A DNA stretch of 64,000 nt from contig JAUYCD010000109.1 of assembly GCA_030692375.1 (NCBI GenBank), positions 9,221-73,220 on the forward strand, read 5' to 3'. Position 1 is the first letter of the stretch; each line of letters opens with the position of its first letter. The notes beneath the pieces were generated by a model that was not told the DNA's origin, searched no databases, and saw only the letters and a program-made list of their open reading frames with translations. The DNA comes from Candidatus Latescibacter sp. (lineage in GTDB: Bacteria > Latescibacterota > Latescibacteria > Latescibacterales > Latescibacteraceae). Of the stretch, positions 4,724 to 45,260 are shown piece by piece. A program made the translations under genes and the position numbers.

Positions 4724-6115
4724 TTATGCCTCCGATGCCGGAATGACGGTGCTTTTCTTTTGGACAGCCAAACTCAGAAGGGTGTAGAGTATCACTGCGA
4801 TGAACCATCCCGGCAGTCCCTTGAAGAAGATCTCGACGGGAAGAAAAAAGACAACCAGGAGTGAAATGCCCCAGGCAGCCGCCGCCGGCCAACTGAACAG
4901 GAGGCCGGTCAACTCTGCATAGTTCCGCTTCAACCCAAGTTTCGGAAGAATCCAGTAATCCGCGAAAACTACCGCGCCCATGGGCATGAGCAGGAGGCCG
5001 TAGAGAGCCACGAAATCGAGCAGCCGCATGACCAGCGCCGGGAACAGGGCGGCAGTTGTAGTAACCATCCCGGCGGCAAGAGTGACTTTCCAGCGTTTCC
5101 AGTTGGGTGTTGCCACCTGCAGGGCGAGACCGGCGCGGTAGAGTGTCGGATTCGCAGTTGTCCAACTGGCCAGCACCACACAAACCACCCCGGCTGCACC
5201 CGCACCCATCCAGGCGATGGGACCGGGCGCCACCGAGCCAAGCGCCGCGGCGCAGAGGATCCCCGAAGCGATCCAGGCGGTATAGTGGCCGAGGAACATG
5301 CCGAAAGCGCTCGCGAAACCATACTGCCATTTTTTTGCATACCGCAGGACGGAGAGATCGGACATCCCGATATGCATTGCCATGTTGCAGAACCAGGCGA
5401 AGAACATCACATGCCAGAAGGTGAATTTCGACTGCCCGGCAAGAGGCACCCCGGTCCAGATTTTCTCGTTCGCCACCCGCCAGAAATCACCGAACGATGT
5501 GCAGCCCAGGGTCGGGAGCACTGCTAAAGCGGCTGCCACGAACACTAGGAACATCCAGGGCGAGCATACCGACCCGAAATGGGCCAGCTTTTCAAATCCG
5601 AGTATGGCAAGAAGGGTAAAAAGCGCTCCGAGAATGAAGATAATCACTACCCAGCTCACGCTGGCCGGGTAAAGGTCGGTAAGCTGCGGCATAGGCATGT
5701 GGAAAGGCAGTCCTATCGCGGTCGCCGCTACCGAGATCATCGCTCCTGCAAGAAAACAGAACATGAGCGCGTTCACAATGCTGTAGACGAACGTCAGGTA
5801 CGGCCCGGTTATTTTCCGTAAGAGCCAGTAGAGGGTGAGCCGCGTCCTGACCGCGATGGGCGCGCAGAGAAACGCCCAACTCAAAACGGCGAGGATGTTC
5901 CCCACCAGGAGTCCCAGGAAAAGGTCGATCGCAGCGACCCCGTGGGCGACAAACAGCGGGCCGATGATAAATTCCGTTCCGGCGACATGTTCCCCCGCAT
6001 ACATCCCGATGAAGCTTCCGGCCCCCTGGAGCTTGGCCTCGGTGACCGGCTCACGGTCGAATTCGTAGAGGGCGTCGAGACGTTCGGTGACTGTGGTTTT
6101 TTCAGGTGCGGACAT
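4724..6115 (-). CDS. NCS1/purine-cytosine-permease-family transporter, 12 TM; possibly the sugar importer of the rhamnose locus
   Basis: Polytopic membrane protein. The N-terminal region ..QGAGSFIGMYAGEHVAGTEFIIGPLF.. resembles CodB/NCS1 TM1. The start was trimmed to MSAPEK (6115) because the upstream extension runs through a repeat element. Confidence 0.5.
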   Translation of the reverse strand: MSAPEKTTVTERLDALYEFDREPVTEAKLQGAGSFIGMYAGEHVAGTEFIIGPLFVAHGVAAIDLFLGLLVGNILAVLSWAFLCAPIAVRTRLTLYWLLRKITGPYLTFVYSIVNALMFCFLAGAMISVAATAIGLPFHMPMPQLTDLYPASVSWVVIIFILGALFTLLAILGFEKLAHFGSVCSPWMFLVFVAAALAVLPTLGCTSFGDFWRVANEKIWTGVPLAGQSKFTFWHVMFFAWFCNMAMHIGMSDLSVLRYAKKWQYGFASAFGMFLGHYTAWIASGILCAAALGSVAPGPIAWMGAGAAGVVCVVLASWTTANPTLYRAGLALQVATPNWKRWKVTLAAGMVTTTAALFPALVMRLLDFVALYGLLLMPMGAVVFADYWILPKLGLKRNYAELTGLLFSWPAAAAWGISLLVVFFLPVEIFFKGLPGWFIAVILYTLLSLAVQKKSTVIPASEA

Positions 6116-6198
6116 ATACTCCCCTTGGAAAAAAGATCCCCCTGTCGCCAAAAGCAGCGACATCCCCCTTGTCGAAGGGGGATAAAAGAAAAAAAATA

Positions 6199-6254
6199 GA
6201 TGCCGAAACGGTATCATCGTTCCCGCGAAGAGGCAACAAGTTCGGCATGACATG
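6199..6254. repeat. Palindromic element of the gccgaaac/gttcggc family; a second copy lies at 4417-4470
   Basis: atagatgccgaaacgg..cgttcccgcgaag..ggcaacaagttcggcatgacatgtt is nearly identical at both sites. Confidence 0.7.
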
Positions 6255-6262
6255 TTCTGCCA

Positions 6263-6587
6263 TTACTCAATTAATGATGGTACGGCAAAAAGTCACAGTG
6301 AATGTTATTTTCAGAATGACAAGACAGTATTATATGTTTTATTGTGCATACTATACTATTGAAAACTCACCCCCTGACCCCCTCTCTTGAAAATAGAGGG
6401 GGAGAACCATCTGCTTCTTAAAATACGTATTATCAACAAAATAACTAACTCAAAGTCGTACCCCCTCTCTTATTAAGAGAGGGGATCAAGGGGTGAGTTA
6501 TCTCCAAAAAATGAGATTGTATAGTGTTCTAATGTCTTGATGAATATTTTCTGAATTCTTTTTTGCCGTATCATCAATTAATGATAG
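6263..6587. repeat. MITE-like element: imperfect 28-bp terminal inverted repeats (ttactcaattaatgatggtacggcaaaaagt / cttttttgccgtatcatcaattaatgatag) enclosing GC-rich hairpin repeats
   Basis: TIRs read at 6263-6292 and 6559-6587. Inside are ccccctctcttgaaaatagaggggg and ccctctcttattaagagagggg hairpins flanked by cacccc/ggggtgag. Confidence 0.5.
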
Positions 6588-6901
6588 CTTAAAATCCAAA
6601 GGGAAAGAAAATATGATTCGGGGGAAAAGACAAGTTTTTATTTTCGCGGATTTCATTCTCGACGCCCCCCGGTCGCCGGAATGTGCGGAATGGGGCACTG
6701 GGTAAACCGTATGTTTTTGCTTGACATGGGGAGGAATTACTGTATATTCCACCGAACACATGCTGATGCTTATCGAACGGGAGGCGCACCCTTGTACCGT
6801 CAGGAGTTCGCAGTCCGGTAGATGGGTTTTAAGGCAACCCGAGGAGGTTGTTAGATAGGGCTAAACGTAACTCCGAGACATTGGACTGTAAAGGAGGGAG
6901 T

Positions 6902-7711
6902 ATGCTACCGAATATAGATCGCTATAAGAAGGACATTGACTCTCTACTTGCCATGGGCGAGCAACTACATCTCGCCATGCAGCGAGAGTGTTTTCCTGAG
7001 GGGCTCGAGAGCGCCGTTAAAAAGAATTTCGGCGACAAGGCGAAGGACATCCTCAAAGGCCTTCCCTCGTTTACAGAGACTTATCAGTCGTGGTACTCGG
7101 AGGCGAAGGTGCTGGTCAGGCAAATGCTGCCCGACCGTCTTTCAGACTTCGTTCGCCACTACGAGAAACCTAAGCCGCGCAAGGACATCACGTACGAGAA
7201 TTACAGAATCGAGGACTACCTTCAAGGACTAAACGTTACTCGCGGATGGGAGAAAGTGAAGGTCGTTGGACCCGACGCCGCTATTCCGCACTTCCGCCAG
7301 CAGCTAGCCATCCTGAAGTCAGTGAAAGTACGCTTTGAGAGCTCTCTATTCGACATCCGTCAGCTGGTTCAAGCCGATCTTTTCGACTCAGAACTGGATG
7401 CAGCGAGAGAACTTGCAAAGCACAAGTTTACGCGAGCCGCGGGTGCCTTGGCCGGAGTGGTTCTAGAGCGGCACCTGGCACAGGTGTGCGACAACCACGG
7501 CATAAAGGTTACGAAAAAGGCGCCTGGCATCGCTGATCTGAATAACGCTCTCAAGGATTCGGATGTTATCGATGTCCCTCAGTGGCGCTTTTTACAGCAT
7601 TTGGCAGACATCCGTAACTTATGCGACCACAATAAGAAGTCAGAGCCTACTGCGGAGCAAGTTGATGACCTAGTGGCTGGTATAATGAAGGTCACAAAGA
7701 CACTTTTCTAA
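6902..7711 (+). CDS. Hypothetical protein with a C-terminal HEPN-like RNxxxH motif (DIRNLCDHN); candidate Abi/HEPN ribonuclease
   Basis: ORF with GGAGGGAG RBS before MLPNIDRYKK. Local GC is lower than the flanks. It has an Rx4H motif and a helical C-terminus. No homologue was recognised beyond that motif. Confidence 0.5.
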   Translation: MLPNIDRYKKDIDSLLAMGEQLHLAMQRECFPEGLESAVKKNFGDKAKDILKGLPSFTETYQSWYSEAKVLVRQMLPDRLSDFVRHYEKPKPRKDITYENYRIEDYLQGLNVTRGWEKVKVVGPDAAIPHFRQQLAILKSVKVRFESSLFDIRQLVQADLFDSELDAARELAKHKFTRAAGALAGVVLERHLAQVCDNHGIKVTKKAPGIADLNNALKDSDVIDVPQWRFLQHLADIRNLCDHNKKSEPTAEQVDDLVAGIMKVTKTLF

Positions 7712-7823
7712 CCATATCATGCGCCACAACTGGACGACGATATCTTACAACCGGCTGTATGCAAAGCGGCTGACCGTACACCTCAGCCGTAGTGTTAGCC
7801 CTTGAATGCCAATCTGGTGAAGA

Positions 7824-7970
7824 ATTGTCAAAACGTCTTACCGATACCCATCCGAAAGCAGGGGAATTTCAGATTTCTCTGATTCGCCGCGCCAGTGTAG
7901 CTGAAAGGTTTTCGCTGACACGCTCGCTGTCCCGGACGGCCGCGGCGCTGCCGGGTGGCTGCAGCCGGTG
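7824..7970 (+). pseudogene. Truncated diverged duplicate of the 5' part of the 8590-8847 gene
   Basis: Positions 7826-7950 are about 85% identical to 8590-8715 (..cttaccgatac.catccgaa.gcag.ggaattccagatttctctg.ttcgccgcgccag.gtagctgaaagg.tttcgctgacacgctcgctgtcccggacgg). It reads LSKRLTDTHPKAGEFQISLIRRASVAERFSLTRSLSRTAAALPGGCSR and then stops. Confidence 0.45.
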
Positions 7971-8043
7971 AGCGCCATCCGTTAGGCATTTATGAAATTA
8001 CTTCTTGACATGAGCTGATTGTCATACAAAACGAGAAAATAAA

Positions 8044-8316
8044 ATGGGTAAATATGAAAAGCTATTGATAAAAATCTTACGAGGGACATATGATGCCAAT
8101 ATTTCTTTTTCAAACATATGCCAGTTATTGAGAAAGTTTGGATTTGATGAACGAACTCAAGGTGACCATCATATTTTCACCAAGGATGGCGCTGAAGAAA
8201 TACTGAACTTGCAATCCAAAGAATCAAAAGCTAAGTTATATCAGGTAAAGCAAGTTCGTAATTTCATACTTAAATATAAATTGAAATTGGAGGAAAAAGA
8301 TGATGAGCAGATATGA
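8044..8316 (+). CDS. hicA: HicA-like mRNA interferase toxin (YcfA family)
   Basis: ..LLRKFGFDERTQGDHHIFTKDG.. matches the HicA G.HH core. It is immediately followed by an overlapping HicB gene. The locus is low GC. Confidence 0.5.
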   Translation: MGKYEKLLIKILRGTYDANISFSNICQLLRKFGFDERTQGDHHIFTKDGAEEILNLQSKESKAKLYQVKQVRNFILKYKLKLEEKDDEQI

Positions 8317-8512
8317 AATAATCGTTTATTGGAGCGAGGAAGACAAGGCATTTATTGCTGAAGTCCCTGAATTGCCTGGATGTATGGCAGATGGAGAGAC
8401 ATATCAAAAAGCCATTTCAAACGCTGAAGTTATTATCCAGGAGTGGATTGAAACTGCCAAGGAATTAGGTCGTGCAATTCCTCAACCCAAAGGACGATTG
8501 ATGTATGCCTAA
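8300..8512 (+). CDS. hicB: HicB-family antitoxin (UPF0150)
   Basis: YEIIVYWSEEDKAFIAEVPELPGCMADGETYQKAISNAEVIIQEWIETAKELGRAIPQP is a canonical HicB N-domain. It overlaps hicA by 17 nt. Confidence 0.75.
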   Translation: MMSRYEIIVYWSEEDKAFIAEVPELPGCMADGETYQKAISNAEVIIQEWIETAKELGRAIPQPKGRLMYA

Positions 8513-8589
8513 CAAGTCATTGCAGCGGACGGCGAAAACGCCACCGCTGATTTAGGTCATTGAGACTTTTAACTACTACATGTTGAATA

Positions 8590-8847
8590 ATGTCAAAACT
8601 GCTTACCGATACTCATCCGAAGGCAGAGGAATTCCAGATTTCTCTGCTTCGCCGCGCCAGCGTAGCTGAAAGGCTTTCGCTGACACGCTCGCTGTCCCGG
8701 ACGGTTATTCAGCTTTCCCGGCGGGCAATAGCACGGGCCAATCCGGGGTTAAGCAAACAGGAGCGGGATATCGCTTTTGTGGTGTATCACTATGGAAACG
8801 ATCTGGCTGAGCGTCTGCGTAAGTATTTAAACCGGAAGGTATTATGA
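8590..8847 (+). CDS. Hypothetical small protein (85 aa); parent copy of the 7824-7970 fragment
   Basis: ORF only; the duplicated 5' region is described above. Confidence 0.4.
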   Translation: MSKLLTDTHPKAEEFQISLLRRASVAERLSLTRSLSRTVIQLSRRAIARANPGLSKQERDIAFVVYHYGNDLAERLRKYLNRKVL

Positions 8848-8993
8848 GAGAGCCTGATTTGTTGGCTACTATTGGGCCGGTAGCTGAAGCTTTTGAAAAG
8901 TTAAAAGCGCTTTACTAAATCGGTGATATTTGCGGAGAATGAAGGCGAACCCCTTTTATACATTTGCAAGGACAGAGTCAAAAACCAAGACCT

Positions 8994-9416
8994 TTATAAT
9001 TGTTTTGGTTTATCAATCTCAGGGGGCAAAATTTCACGAACCGCGTTACGAATCCGTTCCGCAAGAGCCACTGCTTTCCTGGCGTCTTCCAATGAAATCT
9101 CCTCGGAAGCCGGATATCGGGTATCGACAGCATAGGCGGTCATTGTGCGCATCTCGGAGGTTGTCATGGGAAACCGGTCACTATCGGGAATGAGACTCAG
9201 TATTTGCTCTATGTCATGAGTTTTGGGAACGGGGATTTGGTTTAAGACCAAAACGGATTTCAGATATTTCTCTATACATTGTTGCGCATGAAAGCAGACA
9301 ATATCGGTTGTAGCAACAACGCCCAATGAGAGCATGTGAACTGCCGCTTGCATATCTTGTTCAGCCTTTTTGACCCATTCCCTGACAACTCGAAGCACCT
9401 GTTCACGGCTTGGCAT
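8994..9416 (-). CDS. HEPN-domain protein (toxin-like partner of the MNT)
   Basis: 140-aa helical protein placed downstream of, and overlapping by 14 nt, a minimal nucleotidyltransferase gene. This is the typical HEPN/MNT module arrangement. Confidence 0.65.
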   Translation of the reverse strand: MPSREQVLRVVREWVKKAEQDMQAAVHMLSLGVVATTDIVCFHAQQCIEKYLKSVLVLNQIPVPKTHDIEQILSLIPDSDRFPMTTSEMRTMTAYAVDTRYPASEEISLEDARKAVALAERIRNAVREILPPEIDKPKQL

Positions 9417-9735
9417 ACAGTATCACTCCATCGTGACTTGCCGGATACTCGATTGTACCGGTTACGTCTTTCCGCCACTCATACTCTTCAGAGGTGCTGA
9501 CAATAATGTCCTTTGCCACGGGAATATCGTGGAGAAGACTTCCAATTTCAATAGCTTTCTCGCGTTTGGAGCCTTTCATATCAATCACGACCAGGATATC
9601 CACATCGCTGTCCGAACCGGCATCGCCTCTGGCATGGGAGCCGAAAAGGATTATCCGTTCCGGCTGGAACCGTTCGATGATTCTGTCCTTAATGGTTTGA
9701 ATCATTTCCTGAATGTCATTATGCGATACTAACAT
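9403..9735 (-). CDS. Minimal nucleotidyltransferase (MNT) antitoxin-like protein
   Basis: LFGSHARGDAGSDSDVDILVV carries the GSxxxG..DxD motif. The start was trimmed to MLVSHNDIQ (9735) after an AAAGG RBS. Confidence 0.7.
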   Translation of the reverse strand: MLVSHNDIQEMIQTIKDRIIERFQPERIILFGSHARGDAGSDSDVDILVVIDMKGSKREKAIEIGSLLHDIPVAKDIIVSTSEEYEWRKDVTGTIEYPASHDGVILYAKP

Positions 9736-9957
9736 TGTTGTAGCCTTTGCGGTGATGAGGATTATGATTATGAAAATAACTCTTTCCGCCGCCGAATGCA
9801 ACAGAGTGTATCAAGCTTCCGGCTTGGAACATCACGTGGAGTCCTCTTTTATTCTATTCGAGAAAGGCTTACCTTTGCGACTTTGCGTCTCTGCGAGATA
9901 TAATCTTTATTCTCTCTTCTGTCTTCTTCCTCTGCGTCTCTGCGAGAAATAATCTTT

Positions 9958-11034
9958 TCAGCCCAGCGGATAGTTCCCATATTCCCGGACGGCGCCGTAA
10001 AATGCAAGGATATTTTCCAGCGGCACGTCCGGCTGAAAATTGTGCGAAGGCCCCAGGATAAGTCCCCCGCCTGGCCCGACCGTCCTGATACGCAGTTTCA
10101 CTTCTTCCTCTACATCATGGGGAGAGCCAAAGGGCATTACATCCTGGATATCCACTGTGCCCCAGAAGCTTAGATTTTTTCCGAAGCGCTGTTTCAGGTG
10201 CGCCGGGTCCATGGATTTCGGCTGGACGGCGTTCAGGATATCCACACCGATTTCGATGTATTCGGGAAGGAGGCTTTCGATGTTGCCGTCGCTGTGGTAG
10301 GCGATTTTCACATCGGGCTCTATCTTCCGGAATTCCTGTATCAGTGAGGCATACCGGGGTTTGAAGAATTCCCGCCATGTATCCGGAGAAACGATGAGTG
10401 AATGCTGGGTTCCGAAGTCATCCCCCAGCCAGAGAATATCCACTCCGAGTCCTGCAAGGGTCTTGCCGGTAACCAGTTGAAAGCCGTAAAGCTTATCCAG
10501 GAGAGCATGGGCGAAATCCTTGTTCAGCATCAGGTCTGCCAGGAATTCCTCATAACCGCGCAGATACCAGGCAGCTTCGAACAGGGTGCAGGGCATGCCT
10601 CCGACAATGACATGGGTACTGCCGTGCTCAGTGAGAAGCCTGCGGGCCGAATCATATCTCCAGGATTCGTGAGGGTCGGGACAGGAGAAAGAGGAGAGTT
10701 GGTTTCCATCGCGGAGGGGGCGTTTCACCATCTCCGTGTAGCGGCCGTGCGGGATGTCAACCCAGCGCCAGCCGATCCCCCATTCGCAGGTGTATTCCTT
10801 TTCTTCTCTGGCATAGTAGCTCGTGGCGATACCATGCCAGGCCACCAGGATGTCGTGCCCCATGACCAGCGGAAGTTCCGAGACCTTGCCGCTGTAGGCT
10901 TCGGCGGTAGAGTTCCGGAGCCTGAGATGCCGGGAGAGCTTTTCGGCGGCCTCGGGGGTAAAATCCGCATGAATGGGGACCCTGTCCGGCTCTTCGTGGT
11001 TGATGGCGGTCAGAACCCGTTCTCGTGAGGTCAT
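9958..11034 (-). CDS. Uroporphyrinogen-decarboxylase (URO-D)/MtaA-CmuA-family protein, paralogue 1
   Basis: About 358 aa with a URO-D-like fold signature (..EEPDRVPI..GGMPCTLFEAAWYLRGYEEFLADL..). The start is at MTSRERV after AAAGGAAA. Confidence 0.7.
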   Translation of the reverse strand: MTSRERVLTAINHEEPDRVPIHADFTPEAAEKLSRHLRLRNSTAEAYSGKVSELPLVMGHDILVAWHGIATSYYAREEKEYTCEWGIGWRWVDIPHGRYTEMVKRPLRDGNQLSSFSCPDPHESWRYDSARRLLTEHGSTHVIVGGMPCTLFEAAWYLRGYEEFLADLMLNKDFAHALLDKLYGFQLVTGKTLAGLGVDILWLGDDFGTQHSLIVSPDTWREFFKPRYASLIQEFRKIEPDVKIAYHSDGNIESLLPEYIEIGVDILNAVQPKSMDPAHLKQRFGKNLSFWGTVDIQDVMPFGSPHDVEEEVKLRIRTVGPGGGLILGPSHNFQPDVPLENILAFYGAVREYGNYPLG

Positions 11035-11394
11035 GAGTGAGTTTCCTTTTCGATTCATGGAAAAGACAACATCAGGGTTTTCCCCTCGCCCGTTTATGGG
11101 AGAGGAGACATGGGGTGAGGGCAAAAGCGTTTCAGTGCTAAAATTAGGAAAAGCTTCCGTGGAGTCAAGAGTATTTGTCAGAGTGAAGAAAAAAGGCGGA
11201 CAAGATTCCCTGCCATATAGACATTACATATGTCATAATGACATCAGGCCGTATAATTCAAGGGATAATTTGTAATGTACTCTATTCGCATGTAATTATT
11301 AATACAAGAGTTACATTAAATGTACATGCTTGGCGCGTTTTTTGCGCAGATTCTATTACCTAAGAAGATTATAACTTGATAAGGAGGAAGTACT

Positions 11395-43919: not shown

Positions 43920-45260
43920 ATGCCGAAAAATAATACCCTGAACACAGCCTTTATGGTGATCTCTATCCTGCTGGTGTTTTTCACCACAAGTTCCCCGGCA
44001 ACTGCGGCGGACGCCTGGAAGTACCGCATGCCCATCACCCTGACTCACCGTGACGCCGGAACTGCAGGGCTGGCGCCGGTGGATGTAACATTCTCCCTTT
44101 TCTCCGACCGGTGCACCCGCCCGGAAAAGGAAATTCGCCTGGTGCTCGAAACCGCTTCCGGAGAAAAGGAAATCCCGTTCCAGCTCTCACGGCTTTTCCG
44201 ATGGACCAAGGACACCGAGAGCGGGAGGAGCCTTCCCACGCAGAACGGCATGATCACCTTTTTCGATGAAGCGCCGGGAAACGGGGACGCCCGGTATTTC
44301 CTGCTCTACGGCAACCCGGATGCCGCCGCGCCCTCTTATCCGACCGACCTGAAAGTCTCCGGCAAAGGCCCCGCCTGGACCATCGAGAACTCGAAAATGG
44401 TGGTGCAGCTCCACGGTAAAAAACCAGGAATCGGCGAGTCCACCAATCACGATTCCGGGCAGCTTTCCGCTGTAACCCTCAAATCCAAGCCTGACGCGCC
44501 GTTTAAAACCGCGGAGAACGTCATGCACTGGAACCCCTGCGTGTTCGTTCCGGCGCGGGGATGGATCCACTCCTTTGCCTGGGACCCGCCGGAGGTCTGC
44601 GAGATCGAAACCGGGCCGCTTTACACCGAAATCCGCCGCAGCGGGGCGTTTCCCGGCATTCCGGAGGTTCACCTTGCGGTGACCTACCGCATTTTCACCC
44701 GGAGAGCCTATGTAGAGTCCGGAACGGTGGTGGATGTCCGTGAGCCGATCGGCGTGGTGGCCATCCGCAACGATCAGCTCATTTTCAGTCCAGGATTCTT
44801 CACCCATATCGGCTGGGATGACGGCGGCCGGACTGTCACACACCCGCTGAGCAGCTATAAGCCGGTCAACAAGCACGGCGACATCCTGCGGCTGGCGGAC
44901 ACAGTACCGTTCCTGACTTTCTACAACCCTGCCAAAGGAGTGGGCGCCGCCACTATCAGGGAAAGTTTCTCCGCCATCGGCCCGAACGGCGCACCTCCCA
45001 CCCTGTTCGACAACGCCACGTATGTTTCCAACGGCGATCTCCAGTACTGGTTCCGCCCGCTTATCTATTTCCATGTGGGCTGGGACCGGAAGCAGCTCAT
45101 CACCGTCCCCCAAGGCGCCCTCTATTCCGAGCGGAACCTCTACCTCTTCTACGAGCCGAAGGGAAACGAGCCTGTCGCCGAAGTCGTGAATCTTTCCAAA
45201 GCTGTCCGCTCGATGCCCGGATTGAAAATCGGAGAGTATGTGCTGCCGCCGGAAAGATGA
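43920..45260 (+). CDS. Secreted hypothetical protein (446 aa)
   Basis: Sec signal peptide MPKNNTLNTAFMVISILLVFFTTSSPATAADA; no recognised family. Confidence 0.6.
   Translation: MPKNNTLNTAFMVISILLVFFTTSSPATAADAWKYRMPITLTHRDAGTAGLAPVDVTFSLFSDRCTRPEKEIRLVLETASGEKEIPFQLSRLFRWTKDTESGRSLPTQNGMITFFDEAPGNGDARYFLLYGNPDAAAPSYPTDLKVSGKGPAWTIENSKMVVQLHGKKPGIGESTNHDSGQLSAVTLKSKPDAPFKTAENVMHWNPCVFVPARGWIHSFAWDPPEVCEIETGPLYTEIRRSGAFPGIPEVHLAVTYRIFTRRAYVESGTVVDVREPIGVVAIRNDQLIFSPGFFTHIGWDDGGRTVTHPLSSYKPVNKHGDILRLADTVPFLTFYNPAKGVGAATIRESFSAIGPNGAPPTLFDNATYVSNGDLQYWFRPLIYFHVGWDRKQLITVPQGALYSERNLYLFYEPKGNEPVAEVVNLSKAVRSMPGLKIGEYVLPPER

What the first reader, a model, noticed from the sequence alone, without database searches (positions are those of the whole stretch)
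6260..9955. Low-GC defence/TA islet: HEPN-motif solo protein, HicAB, duplicated orphan gene, HEPN/MNT
Between the permease and the URO-D gene the composition drops. The region is bounded on the left by palindromic elements (6199-6500) and on the right by two 25-bp direct repeats, tgcgtctctgcgaga(t/a)ataatcttt at 9885-9950. It contains a 269-aa protein whose helical C-terminus carries DIRNLCDHN, an RNxxxH HEPN signature with no assignable family. It also contains hicA-hicB, an 85-aa orphan gene whose 5' 125 bp are duplicated at 7826-7950 as a truncated copy, and an overlapping HEPN/MNT pair. The HEPN-motif protein is the most likely novel component; it could be a solo abortive-infection RNase.
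Basis: partly seen in the sequence, partly recalled or inferred. Interest (0 to 1): 0.55.

Follow-up and report, generated by a model that had tools for sequence, protein, structure and literature searches.

The report
Cassette-borne solo HEPN gene among toxin-antitoxin remnants
The islet is a decaying string of integron gene cassettes and toxin-antitoxin remnants, and its 269-aa gene belongs to a very widespread, uncharacterised family of single-gene HEPN (predicted RNase) proteins that is a reasonable but untested anti-phage candidate.

Summary

In relatives it lies between canonical attC sites, once 1.8 kb from a bona fide integron integrase. The closest relative (90% identity) sits in an array of 14 attC sites. 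In the window, homology to that cassette starts at G|TTAGAT (6850) and ends at GTTAGCC (7800), but its attC is degenerate. Only hicAB keeps a scorable attC (8507-8557), and no integrase is present.

The "orphan" 85-aa gene is not an orphan. It is an antitoxin-like gene whose nucleotidyltransferase partner has been deleted to a roughly 20-codon stub.

An abortive-infection RNase role is plausible by analogy (RAZR, integron defence cassettes) but untested. Verdict: new member of a known kind, moderate interest.

The parts
6262..6590 (.). Nested palindromic element of about 320 nt (outer IR 6267-6291/6560-6584; inner IR 6361-6402/6461-6502), MITE-like; single copy in the window
   Evidence: the repeat finder; fold z = -9.3; no other copy in the window; no Rfam match
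6721..6748 (+). Sigma-70-like promoter match (TTGACA-16-TATATT, 11/12), about 100 nt upstream of the cassette boundary; possible driver of the cassette string
   Evidence: Consensus scan. This is a consensus match only, and the host's promoter type is unverified
6850..6856 (+). GTTAGAT, an attC R'-type core site marking the 5' boundary of the 269-aa cassette (crossover G|TT)
   Evidence: Homology with L087 and L001 begins exactly here. Segment identity is 0.48 before it and 0.68 after it. The same GTTRRRY position recurs in many homologous loci
6851..7794 (+). Integron gene cassette carrying the 269-aa HEPN gene (5'UTR, ORF, 30-nt spacer, degenerate attC)
   Evidence: Homology to the L087 cassette is confined to this span. 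L087 has CM-detected attCs on both sides of its copy
6902..7711 (+). 269-aa protein: N-terminal helical bundle (about residues 1-85), highly conserved linker with beta-hairpin (86-123), and C-terminal DUF4145-like HEPN domain (124-269) carrying E189, H191 and R238-N239-x3-H243
7742..7800 (+). Degenerate attC of the 269-aa cassette. R'' is ATCTTAC (7742-7748), one base away from the ATCTAAC predicted from the upstream GTTAGAT; R' is GTTAGCC (7794-7800)
   Evidence: Aligns with the CM-positive attC of L087 at 62% identity. It is not itself detected by the CM and does not fold better than shuffles
7826..7939 (+). Truncated duplicate (92% identity) of the 5' part of the 85-aa antitoxin-like gene, lying in a short segment (7795-7981) bounded by GTTAGCC and GTTAGGC core sites
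   Evidence: the repeat finder D1; blastn; annotated as a 48-aa hypothetical protein, P0350
7981..7987 (+). GTTAGGC core site, 5' boundary of the hicAB cassette; exact reverse complement of the R'' at 8507-8513
   Evidence: Sequence; the repeat finder I6
8044..8316 (+). hicA-like toxin gene (90 aa)
   Evidence: Pfam HicA_toxin 23.2 bits, below the cut-off of 27; PHROG toxin family 6.2e-7
8300..8512 (+). hicB-like antitoxin gene (70 aa), overlapping hicA by 17 nt
   Evidence: Pfam HicB_lk_antitox 40.6 bits, above the cut-off of 27; PHROG HicB-like 1e-11
8507..8557 (+). Intact attC site of the hicAB cassette. R'' is GCCTAAC, overlapping the hicB stop codon; R' variant is TTTAGGT (8551-8557)
   Evidence: It is the only significant CM hit in the 64-kb window: R2 22.8 bits, E 0.0019; R1 E 0.26. 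The hairpin folds with z -4.5/-4.9
8590..8847 (+). 85-aa antitoxin-like gene (weakly Rv0078B/MenA1-like family); not an orphan
   Evidence: 81 homologues. Some hit PF18993 sub-threshold. In L084 and L086 it is followed by a 196-197-aa DUF6036-like nucleotidyltransferase gene
8844..8918 (+). Stub of the partner nucleotidyltransferase (toxin-like) gene. Only about the first 20 codons (MREPDLLATIGPVAEAFEKL) are retained, followed by a stop
   Evidence: Translation compared with the full-length partners in L084 and L086
8994..9416 (-). HEPN-domain protein (140 aa, PF05168 type) with no Rx4-6H motif
   Evidence: Pfam 99.6 bits; absence of the motif read from the translation
9403..9738 (-). Minimal nucleotidyltransferase (MNT), overlapping the HEPN gene by 14 nt
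   Evidence: Pfam NTP_transf_2 48.1 bits; NCBIfam MntA 35 bits, below the cut-off of 60; PADLOC PDC-S09 6e-16
9881..9957 (+). Two 28-nt direct repeats (9881-9908 and 9930-9957, 93% identity) with CTTTGCG/CTCTGCG heptamers. They lie between the URO-D-family gene's stop and the MNT promoter region and are not attC-like
   Evidence: no CM hit; fold no better than shuffles

Best explanation
**The islet.** The islet between the permease and the URO-D-family gene is a decaying, integrase-less string of integron gene cassettes and toxin-antitoxin modules in a Candidatus Latescibacter genome.

- Cassette 1 (6851-7794) carries the 269-aa gene.
- A short segment (7795-7981) holds a truncated antitoxin copy.
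- Cassette 3 (7982-8557) is hicAB, with the only still-recognisable attC.
- Next comes an antitoxin-like gene whose nucleotidyltransferase partner has been deleted to a stub.
- Last is an inverted MNT/HEPN pair.

**The protein.** The 269-aa protein belongs to a large, horizontally spread, single-gene family. It has a helical N-terminal domain, a very conserved linker, and a C-terminal DUF4145-like HEPN domain with an intact R-N-x3-H motif.

**Most likely mechanism (inferred, not shown).**
1. The protein dimerises through its HEPN domains to form a composite, metal-independent RNase site.
2. It is held inactive in healthy cells.
3. Its N-terminal domain or linker senses an infection cue.
4. It then cleaves cellular and/or phage RNA and stops translation, which is abortive infection.

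This is the behaviour shown for the single-gene ZnF-DUF4145 protein RAZR, and it is what is found for many integron-borne defence cassettes.

**Confidence by step.**
- HEPN fold: about 0.9.
- Integron-cassette origin of the gene: about 0.85.
- Catalytically active RNase: about 0.65.
- Anti-phage abortive-infection role: about 0.45.
For: **Fold**
- AF2 model pLDDT 85.3.

**Motif**
- R238, N239, H243 and E189 are near-invariant and H191 is invariant in a 37-66%-identity alignment.

**Family**
- 5,515 homologues at E <= 1e-3.
- 2,894 clusters at 50% identity, nearly all 245-295 aa.
- 259 genome hits across many phyla.
- DUF4145, HEPN or RiboL-PSP-HEPN Pfam hits in members.
- tblastn E 1e-11 to 3e-8 against plasmid proteins annotated HEPN/DUF4145.

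**Solo status**
- No recurrent neighbour.

**Selection**
- dN/dS 0.115-0.128.

**Cassette nature**
- The upstream GTTRRRY and the post-stop RYYYAAC are exact complements in 8 loci, against about 0.1 expected by my estimate.
- IntI (TIGR02249, 481 bits) lies 1.8 kb upstream in L002.
- CM-detected attC sites follow the gene directly in at least 11 loci, and 45 of 46 hits are on the gene's strand.
- L087, which was not used to train the model, has 14 attCs including both flanks of its copy.
- Homology between the window and L087 is confined to the cassette.
- The hicAB attC scores E 0.0019 and folds with z -4.5.

**Analogy and context**
- RAZR is a single-gene DUF4145 abortive-infection RNase (PMC13017515).
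- Integrons are described as reservoirs of defence cassettes, including a HEPN AbiU2 cassette (bioRxiv 10.64898/2026.03.17.712381).
- Restriction-modification components are the commonest immediate neighbours.
- L089 places the gene between TIR/HerA-like genes and a type I RM plus GmrSD.
- L002 places it next to DUF5677 and AbiTii.
Against: - No experiment and no match to any PADLOC defence model.
- The window protein's own DUF4145 score is below Pfam's cut-off (16.1 against 23.1 bits).
- The window cassette's attC is not detected by the covariance model and does not fold better than shuffles. The R'' has lost the conserved AAC.
- Only one significant attC exists in the window, and no integrase lies within 64 kb. 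The strict CALIN definition of at least 2 attC sites is therefore not met.
- No attC evidence exists for the right half of the islet (8558-9957).
- Most of the 79 homologous loci show no attC with my small, home-made model.
- The very high conservation (56-90% identity across phyla) is unusual for a fast-evolving defence gene.
- How a solo HEPN RNase would be kept harmless is not explained by any data here.
- The N-terminal domain matches only generic helical bundles.
Confidence: 0.55

Rival explanations
1. The 269-aa protein is a non-catalytic HEPN protein that binds a ligand or nucleic acid, or acts as a regulator (as in MtlR or the substrate-binding domains of nucleotidyltransferases), rather than an RNase.
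Against: R238, N239 and H243 are near-invariant across 37-66%-identity relatives, and the Rx4H spacing is exact. This is the signature of catalytic HEPN families. Within DUF4145 the motif is mostly conserved (PMC3710099), and it is catalytic in RAZR (PMC13017515).
Confidence: 0.15
2. The protein is the toxin of a toxin-antitoxin system. Its antitoxin would be a very small ORF, an RNA, or its own N-terminal domain, and it would serve to stabilise the cassette array rather than to defend against phage.
For: The gene sits among toxin-antitoxin modules here (hicAB, MNT/HEPN, an antitoxin remnant) and in L087 (ParE, BrnTA). Toxin-antitoxin cassettes are a known feature of chromosomal integrons (general knowledge, not checked in a paper here).
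Against: No ORF of 50 aa or more recurs next to it in 79 loci. The cassette is only 944 nt, with a 52-nt 5'UTR and a 30-nt spacer, so there is no room for a second gene. The upstream regions are not conserved beyond the cassette boundary. Rfam finds nothing.
Confidence: 0.1
3. The islet is not integron-derived. It would simply be a variable chromosomal spot that has accumulated toxin-antitoxin and defence genes, with the GTTRRRY motifs in the window occurring by chance.
For: There is only one CM-significant attC in the window, no integrase within 64 kb, and no attC signal at 7742-7800, 7920-7990, 6765-6858 or anywhere right of 8565.
Against: Homology to an independently verified cassette (L087) begins at G|TTAGAY and ends at the R' of its attC. 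The flanks are at random-level identity of 0.48-0.49. GTTAGGC at 7981 is the exact complement of the R'' at 8507, at the hicAB attC. R'' ATCTTAC is one substitution away from the complement of the upstream GTTAGAT.
Confidence: 0.12

Closest known systems
RAZR / PD-T7-4 (ring-activated zinc-finger RNase; PMC13017515)
   Different: The N-terminal domain here is a helical bundle with no Cys4 zinc ribbon. No similarity to any solved chain was found by sequence, and there is no PADLOC hit. Trigger, oligomeric state and activity are unknown.
DUF4145 (PF13643) clade of the HEPN superfamily (Anantharaman et al. 2013, PMC3710099)
   Same: It shares the Rx4H motif, helical core, sporadic distribution, association with RM and abortive-infection genes, and fusion to varied N-terminal helical domains (AbiJ-NTD1 and DpnII/MboI-NTD are listed there).
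   Different: The window protein scores below Pfam's gathering cut-off (16.1 against 23.1 bits). Whether its N-terminal domain equals AbiJ-NTD1 or DpnII/MboI-NTD could not be tested; there was no Pfam hit.
Integron gene cassettes / CALIN elements (Cury et al. 2016, PMC4889954) and integron-borne defence cassettes (Kieffer 2025, Darracq 2025 and Getz 2025, as cited in bioRxiv 10.64898/2026.03.17.712381)
   Same: It is a single small gene bounded by G|TTRRRY and its own attC. The R'' is complementary to the upstream core site. Relatives lie in arrays with IntI, toxin-antitoxin cassettes are interspersed, and a cassette-borne HEPN (AbiU2) defence protein is already reported.
   Different: In this window the array has no integrase, only one scorable attC, and deletions in two modules. 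It is a relic rather than a working integron. Genome insertion of cassettes outside att sites is also documented (bioRxiv 10.1101/2022.09.11.507474).
HicAB type II and HEPN/MNT (HepT/MntA, type VII) toxin-antitoxin systems
   Same: Gene order, small sizes, overlapping ORFs and Pfam domains all fit.
   Different: HicA is below the Pfam cut-off. The HEPN partner of MNT is of the PF05168 type and has no Rx4-6H motif, unlike HepT (DUF86). MNT scores 35 bits against a cut-off of 60 for NCBIfam MntA.
MenA1/MenT1 (Rv0078B/Rv0078A) antitoxin/nucleotidyltransferase-toxin pairs
   Same: A small upstream protein overlaps by 4 nt a protein of about 196 aa with a GS...DxD nucleotidyltransferase signature. 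Homologues hit PF18993 and DUF6036 weakly.
   Different: All Pfam scores are below the cut-offs, and the window's 85-aa protein itself gives no hit. The toxin gene is reduced to a stub of about 20 codons here. The equation with MenAT1 rests on my recollection of the Rv0078A/B naming and was not tested.

Membership tests
HEPN superfamily | All-alpha up-down helical bundle core resembling solved HEPN domains | tested here: met
HEPN superfamily | Conserved Rx4-6H motif | tested here: met
   R238-N-L-C-D-H243. R238, N239 and H243 are conserved in at least 90% of a 49-sequence alignment at 37-66% identity
HEPN superfamily | Dimer with composite active site; metal-independent endoRNase activity | not testable with these tools
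   No multimer prediction or biochemistry was available
DUF4145 (PF13643) | Score at or above Pfam's gathering cut-off (23.1 bits) | tested here: not met
   Window protein scores 16.1 bits, E 0.012. 14 of 49 family members hit at E <= 0.01, best 3.6e-5. tblastn gives 2e-10 to 3e-8 against plasmid proteins annotated as DUF4145. It is a relative, not a formal Pfam member
RAZR / PD-T7-4 | N-terminal Cys4 zinc-ribbon domain | tested here: not met
RAZR / PD-T7-4 | Match to a PADLOC defence model | tested here: not met
   No PADLOC family at E <= 0.1
Integron gene cassette (269-aa gene) | 5' boundary at G|TTRRRY, with homology to other copies starting there | tested here: met
   GTTAGAT at 6850-6856. 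Identity to L087 is 0.48 before it and 0.68-0.89 after it
Integron gene cassette (269-aa gene) | Own attC site (R''-L''...L'-R' hairpin) after the ORF | tested here: inconclusive
   In the window, 7742-7800 aligns to the CM-positive attC of L087 (62% identity), but it is itself CM-negative and folds no better than shuffles; AAC has become TAC in R''. In homologues, an attC follows the gene directly in at least 11 loci plus L087
Integron gene cassette (269-aa gene) | R'' complementary to the core site upstream of the cassette | tested here: met
   Exact in 8 homologous loci. The window matches at 6 of 7 positions (ATCTTAC against ATCTAAC)
Complete integron | Integron integrase (IntI) next to the array | tested here: not met
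   There is no tyrosine recombinase in the 64-kb window (tblastn best E 0.96). It is present in relative L002 (TIGR02249, 481 bits against a cut-off of 265)
CALIN (cluster of attC sites lacking integrase; PMC4889954) | At least two attC sites within 4 kb and no intI | tested here: inconclusive
   One significant attC (8507-8557, E 0.0019) and one degenerate attC supported only by homology. My model is home-made from 46 sites and is not IntegronFinder's
HicAB type II TA | HicA and HicB domains in adjacent, overlapping genes | tested here: met
   HicB scores 40.6 bits, above 27. HicA scores 23.2 bits, below 27, but hits a PHROG toxin family at 6.2e-7. The genes overlap by 17 nt
HepT/MntA type VII TA | HEPN toxin with Rx4-6H; MntA-type nucleotidyltransferase above the NCBIfam cut-off | tested here: not met
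   There is no R-x(4-6)-H anywhere in the 140-aa HEPN protein (translation). The HEPN is PF05168, not DUF86. MntA scores 35.2 bits against a cut-off of 60
Rv0078B-related antitoxin (PF18993) with nucleotidyltransferase partner | Pfam cut-off (27.1 bits) and an adjacent nucleotidyltransferase gene | tested here: inconclusive
   The window's 85-aa protein has no hit. Homologues score 22-24 bits. The partner is present in L084 and L086 (DUF6036, 20.5 bits against 23.6), but only a stub of about 20 codons remains in the window

The most novel reading that the evidence does not exclude
The 269-aa family is a previously unrecognised, very widespread single-gene abortive-infection system. It would have a new helical sensor domain fused to a DUF4145-like HEPN RNase and would spread among bacterial phyla, and possibly archaea, mainly as an integron cassette. 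Its unusually strong conservation (56-90% identity across phyla, with an almost invariant linker YEKPKPRKDITYENYRIEDYLQG) would mean that it recognises a highly conserved phage or cellular component.
Probability: 0.4. Interest if true: 0.55.

Novelty: new member of a known kind. Interest (0 to 1): 0.4.

Why it matters
If the family is an active defence RNase, it would add a compact (about 0.95 kb), very widely distributed single-gene system to the list of integron-borne defences. No PADLOC 2.0 (2023) model matches it. It would also supply a new sensor domain whose trigger could be sought.

The window itself documents how cassette arrays decay once they are away from an integrase. The signs are point mutation of a conserved R'' base, toxin genes deleted while their antitoxins remain, and a duplicated, truncated antitoxin. 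For genome annotation, three "hypothetical" or "orphan" calls in this islet can now be given a rationale.

Tried and rejected
- **Conserved ncRNA, riboswitch or type III antitoxin upstream of the 269-aa gene.** Rfam found nothing. Upstream sequences are unrelated beyond the 52-nt cassette 5'UTR.
- **Conserved partner gene.** All-against-all clustering of flanking ORFs in 79 loci found none. A Pfam survey of 148 immediate neighbours found no recurrent family.
- **Left palindrome and right repeats as island att sites or target duplications.** They share no sequence, and each is unique in the window.
- **attC sites at 7703-7803, 7920-7990 and 6765-6858, and anywhere right of 8565.** These were not supported by the covariance models or by folding.
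- **Integrase in the window.** None was found.
- **Sequence match to any solved structure.** Only noise was found.
- **Phage origin.** There was no hit in 50,697 GenBank phage records and no significant BFVD structural match. Only 26 IMG/VR loci were found, many at contig ends.
- **AFDB Foldseek.** This could not be run because the library was unavailable.
- **85-aa protein against plasmids.** There was no match.

Full report
**Source and layout**

The window comes from a Candidatus Latescibacter sp. MAG (phylum Latescibacterota, FCB group). The 269-aa protein is 100% identical to an NCBI "hypothetical protein Q8O92_06715".

The islet lies between a cytosine-permease-like gene (4724-6253, minus strand) and a URO-D/MtaA-family gene (9958-11124, minus strand), with DnaK following. 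The sequence contains these features:

- the 269-aa ORF at 6902-7711
- hicA at 8044-8316 and hicB at 8300-8512
- an 85-aa ORF at 8590-8847
- a 114-nt, 92%-identical duplicate of that ORF's 5' part at 7826-7939
- an overlapping MNT (9403-9738) and HEPN (8994-9416) pair on the minus strand
- two direct repeats at 9884-9908 and 9933-9957

The "palindromic elements" on the left are one nested hairpin element of about 320 nt at 6262-6590 (fold z = -9.3). The GC drop is real but patchy. The islet is 0.459 against 0.516 for the window. hicAB is 0.37 and the palindrome region 0.41, but the 269-aa gene is 0.517.

**The 269-aa protein**

Database scans gave little directly:
- Pfam gives only a sub-threshold DUF4145 hit (16.1 bits, cut-off 23.1).
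- NCBIfam and PADLOC give nothing.
- PHROGs gives a weak hit over the C-terminal half.

The family, however, is very large:
- 5,515 homologues at E <= 1e-3. The best 120 are all about 269 aa and 71-90% identical, from Actinomycetota, Bacteroidota, Armatimonadota and other phyla.
- A profile search of 1.84 billion representatives finds 2,894 clusters at 50% identity, 566 of them below 1e-30. Almost all are 245-295 aa.
- A scan of species-representative genomes finds 259 copies. The best 80 are 56-81% identical. They come from Chloroflexota, Acidobacteriota, Pseudomonadota (including cultured Stenotrophomonas, Xanthomonas, Ideonella, Castellaniella and Rhodanobacter), Campylobacterota (Sulfurospirillum), Nitrospirota, Patescibacteria and others, plus one Methanophagales archaeon MAG.

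In a diverse alignment (37-66% identity), Y61, Q134, R178, V186, H191 and P249 are invariant. E189, R238, N239, C241 and H243 are at least 90% conserved.

An AlphaFold2 model built on 42 sequences is confident (pLDDT 85.3, pTM 0.62). It has three parts:
- helices 4-83
- a loop and beta-hairpin at 84-122, which is the most conserved stretch in the close alignment
- a helical C-terminal domain at 124-268

The N-terminal 125 residues, modelled alone (pLDDT 78.9), match only generic helical bundles.

**A solo gene**

I clustered every ORF of at least 50 aa within 3.5 kb of the gene in 79 loci. No partner recurred. Only tyrosine recombinases appeared, in 6 loci.

A Pfam survey of the 148 immediately flanking ORFs shows no recurrent family. 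The commonest hits are restriction-modification components (ResIII x4, N6_Mtase x3, Methylase_S x3, Eco57I x3). KAP NTPases, integrases, DUF5677 and HNH each appear twice.

Individual contexts include:
- TIR, a HerA-like gene, a type I RM system and GmrSD in L089
- DUF5677 and AbiTii in L002

The gene is under purifying selection, with dN/dS 0.115 against L087 and 0.128 against L001.

**The integron connection (not in the original finding)**

Inspecting the flanks of the homologues, I noticed GTTRRRY 26-76 nt upstream of the start codon. Its exact reverse complement, RYYYAAC, lies 3-51 nt after the stop:

| Loci | Upstream site | Post-stop site |
|---|---|---|
| L016, L038, L046, L071 | GTTAGGC | GCCTAAC |
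| L042, L047 | GTTAGAC | GTCTAAC |
| L002 | GTTGGAC | GTCCAAC |
| L069 (archaeal MAG) | GTTAAGT | ACTTAAC |

That is 8 exact complements, where I estimate about 0.1 by chance. This is the signature of an integron gene cassette, in which the R'' of a cassette's own attC is complementary to the core site at its 5' junction.

Further evidence from the relatives:
- L002 carries a bona fide integron integrase 1.8 kb upstream (TIGR02249, 481 bits, cut-off 265).
- L038 (Ideonella lacteola) is an array with an attC roughly every 470 bp.
- A covariance model built from 11 such sites (A3, R1) found 46 sites in the loci. Of these, 45 are on the gene's strand, and at least 11 loci have a site directly after the gene.
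- A second model (R2) confirmed these and extended them.
- L087 was fetched afterwards and was not used for training. It is the contig carrying the closest relative (P0002, 90% identity). It shows 14 attC hits in 12.8 kb, one between nearly every pair of genes and one on each flank of the 269-aa gene. ParE, BrnT/BrnA and IS elements are interspersed.

**What the window retains**

R2, run over the whole window with filters off, finds one significant site at 8507-8565 (22.8 bits, E 0.0019). The next best hit has E 0.53. That site begins with GCCTAAC, overlapping the hicB stop codon. It folds as a hairpin on both strands (z -4.5 and -4.9). It is the exact complement of the GTTAGGC at 7981-7987 upstream of hicA. 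hicAB is therefore a cassette spanning 7982-8557.

For the 269-aa gene, alignment with L087 and L001 shows that homology starts exactly at GTTAGAY (window 6850). Homology with L087 then continues through the ORF, a 30-nt spacer and the attC, and stops at the R' site (window GTTAGCC, 7794-7800). Segment identities to L087 are:

| Segment | Identity |
|---|---|
| 80 nt before the R' site | 0.48 |
| R' site and 5'UTR | 0.68 |
| ORF | 0.89 |
| 3' spacer | 0.70 |
| attC | 0.62 |
| 80 nt after the R' site | 0.49 |

The window's R'' reads ATCTTAC (7742-7748). This is one substitution from the ATCTAAC predicted by the upstream GTTAGAT, and the change destroys the conserved AAC.

Consistent with decay, this attC is not detected by the model and folds no better than shuffles. 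No attC-like signal was found at 6765-6858, at 7920-7990 or to the right of 8565. There is no tyrosine recombinase anywhere in the 64-kb window.

By the IntegronFinder definitions (PMC4889954) this is at best a degraded CALIN. Cassette insertion outside att sites is also documented (bioRxiv 10.1101/2022.09.11.507474).

**The other modules**

The 85-aa "orphan" has 81 homologues. Some give sub-threshold hits to PF18993, the Rv0078B-related antitoxin family.

In L084 and L086 it overlaps by 4 nt a gene of 196-197 aa beginning MRDPDLLAAVGPVADAFEKLGVPYYIGGS. That gene gives a weak DUF6036 nucleotidyltransferase hit. The window keeps only about the first 20 codons of this partner (MREPDLLATIGPVAEAFEKL), after which the sequence diverges and stops.

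The window therefore holds an antitoxin-like gene whose toxin-like partner has been deleted, plus a second, truncated copy of the antitoxin at 7826-7939. I equate this pair with MenA1/MenT1 from memory of the Rv0078A/B naming, so that link is a lead only.

The MNT/HEPN pair is solid at the Pfam level. However, its HEPN is of the PF05168 type and contains no R-x(4-6)-H (translation). Its MNT scores well below the NCBIfam MntA cut-off. It should not be assumed to be a HepT/MntA toxin-antitoxin.

**Mechanism**

Shown here:
- a HEPN fold
- an intact, conserved Rx4H motif
- solo architecture
- cassette-borne spread
- purifying selection
- frequent RM and abortive-infection neighbours

Inferred from established knowledge of HEPN RNases (Anantharaman 2013, PMC3710099) and from RAZR/PD-T7-4, a single-gene ZnF-DUF4145 protein activated by phage ring proteins to cleave RNA and abort infection (PMC13017515):
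1. The protein dimerises to form a composite RNase site.
2. It is kept inactive until its N-terminal domain or linker senses an infection cue.
3. It then arrests translation.

Integrons are now described as reservoirs of small defence cassettes, including a dimeric HEPN AbiU2 protein (bioRxiv 10.64898/2026.03.17.712381).

Points against:
- There is no PADLOC match.
- There is no experimental evidence.
- The conservation is unusually high for a defence gene.
- There is no explanation of how the cell protects itself from the enzyme.

Expression in the window could come from the sigma-70-like promoter at 6721-6748 (11 of 12 consensus positions), but that is only a consensus match.

**Verdict**

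The protein is a new, uncharacterised member of a known kind, namely single-gene HEPN/DUF4145 effectors. The islet is a known kind of element, namely integron cassettes and toxin-antitoxin remnants. Interest is moderate. The family's breadth and conservation make it a good experimental candidate, but nothing here is categorically new.

Noticed in passing
window 6262-6590: Nested palindromic element of about 320 nt (25-nt outer and 42-nt inner inverted repeats, each inner arm containing a CCCCCTCTCTT...AAGAGAGGGG hairpin). It folds with z = -9.3, is single copy in the window and has no Rfam match. It may be a MITE or a large regulatory or terminator structure downstream of the permease gene.
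   Followed up: partly
window 9873-9957; L019:3700-3830: The right-hand direct repeats are built from CTTTGCG/CTCTGCG heptamers (TRF period 8, 9873-9896). A similar dense cluster of CTTTGCG/CGCAAAG heptamers occurs in a KSB1 MAG locus (blastn E 2e-4). KSB1, like Latescibacter, is usually placed in the FCB group (from memory; not checked here). The function is unknown.
   Followed up: partly
window 8994-9416 (-): The HEPN protein paired with MNT has no Rx4-6H motif anywhere in its 140 residues, so it is probably not a catalytic HepT-type toxin.
   Followed up: partly
window 7926-7987: Similarity between the truncated antitoxin copy and the full copy ends at CCCGGACGG. This resembles the attC L'' core (GCGGAC) seen in the model consensus and in L087. 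What follows (…GAGCGCCATCC-GTTAGGC) looks like the 3' half of an attC. This suggests a microhomology-mediated deletion that fused the gene to an attC remnant.
   Followed up: no
L060:6908-, L070:6483-8927, L074:6821-9328: In three loci a homologous ORF of 815-931 aa starts 5-6 nt (L070, L074) or further (L060) downstream of the 269-aa homologue. This may be a lineage-specific partner. It was not characterised.
   Followed up: no
L038 (Ideonella lacteola NZ_JBBUTG010000038.1), whole 12.8-kb locus: Very regular cassette array with more than 20 nearly identical 60-69-nt attC sites spaced about 470-530 bp apart, typical of a large sedentary chromosomal integron.
   Followed up: partly
L069:1904-2713 (Methanophagales archaeon QENH01000017.1): A copy at 59% identity lies on an archaeal MAG contig with cassette-type boundaries (GTTAAGT upstream, ACTTAAC after the stop). 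This could be cross-domain cassette transfer or a binning artefact.
   Followed up: no
L093-L118 (IMG/VR): 26 viral-contig loci carry homologues (27-71% identity). Many sit at the very ends of predicted prophage contigs, so they may be flanking host DNA rather than phage genes. There are no hits in curated GenBank phage genomes.
   Followed up: partly
window 44489-44526 (+): Weak attC-like covariance-model hit (13.1 bits, E 0.53), far from the islet. It is probably chance.
   Followed up: no
L044:4435-4788 (Castellaniella ginsengisoli): A 126-aa fragment 43% identical to the L002 integron integrase lies about 1.2 kb upstream of the 269-aa homologue. It is possibly an intI pseudogene.
   Followed up: no
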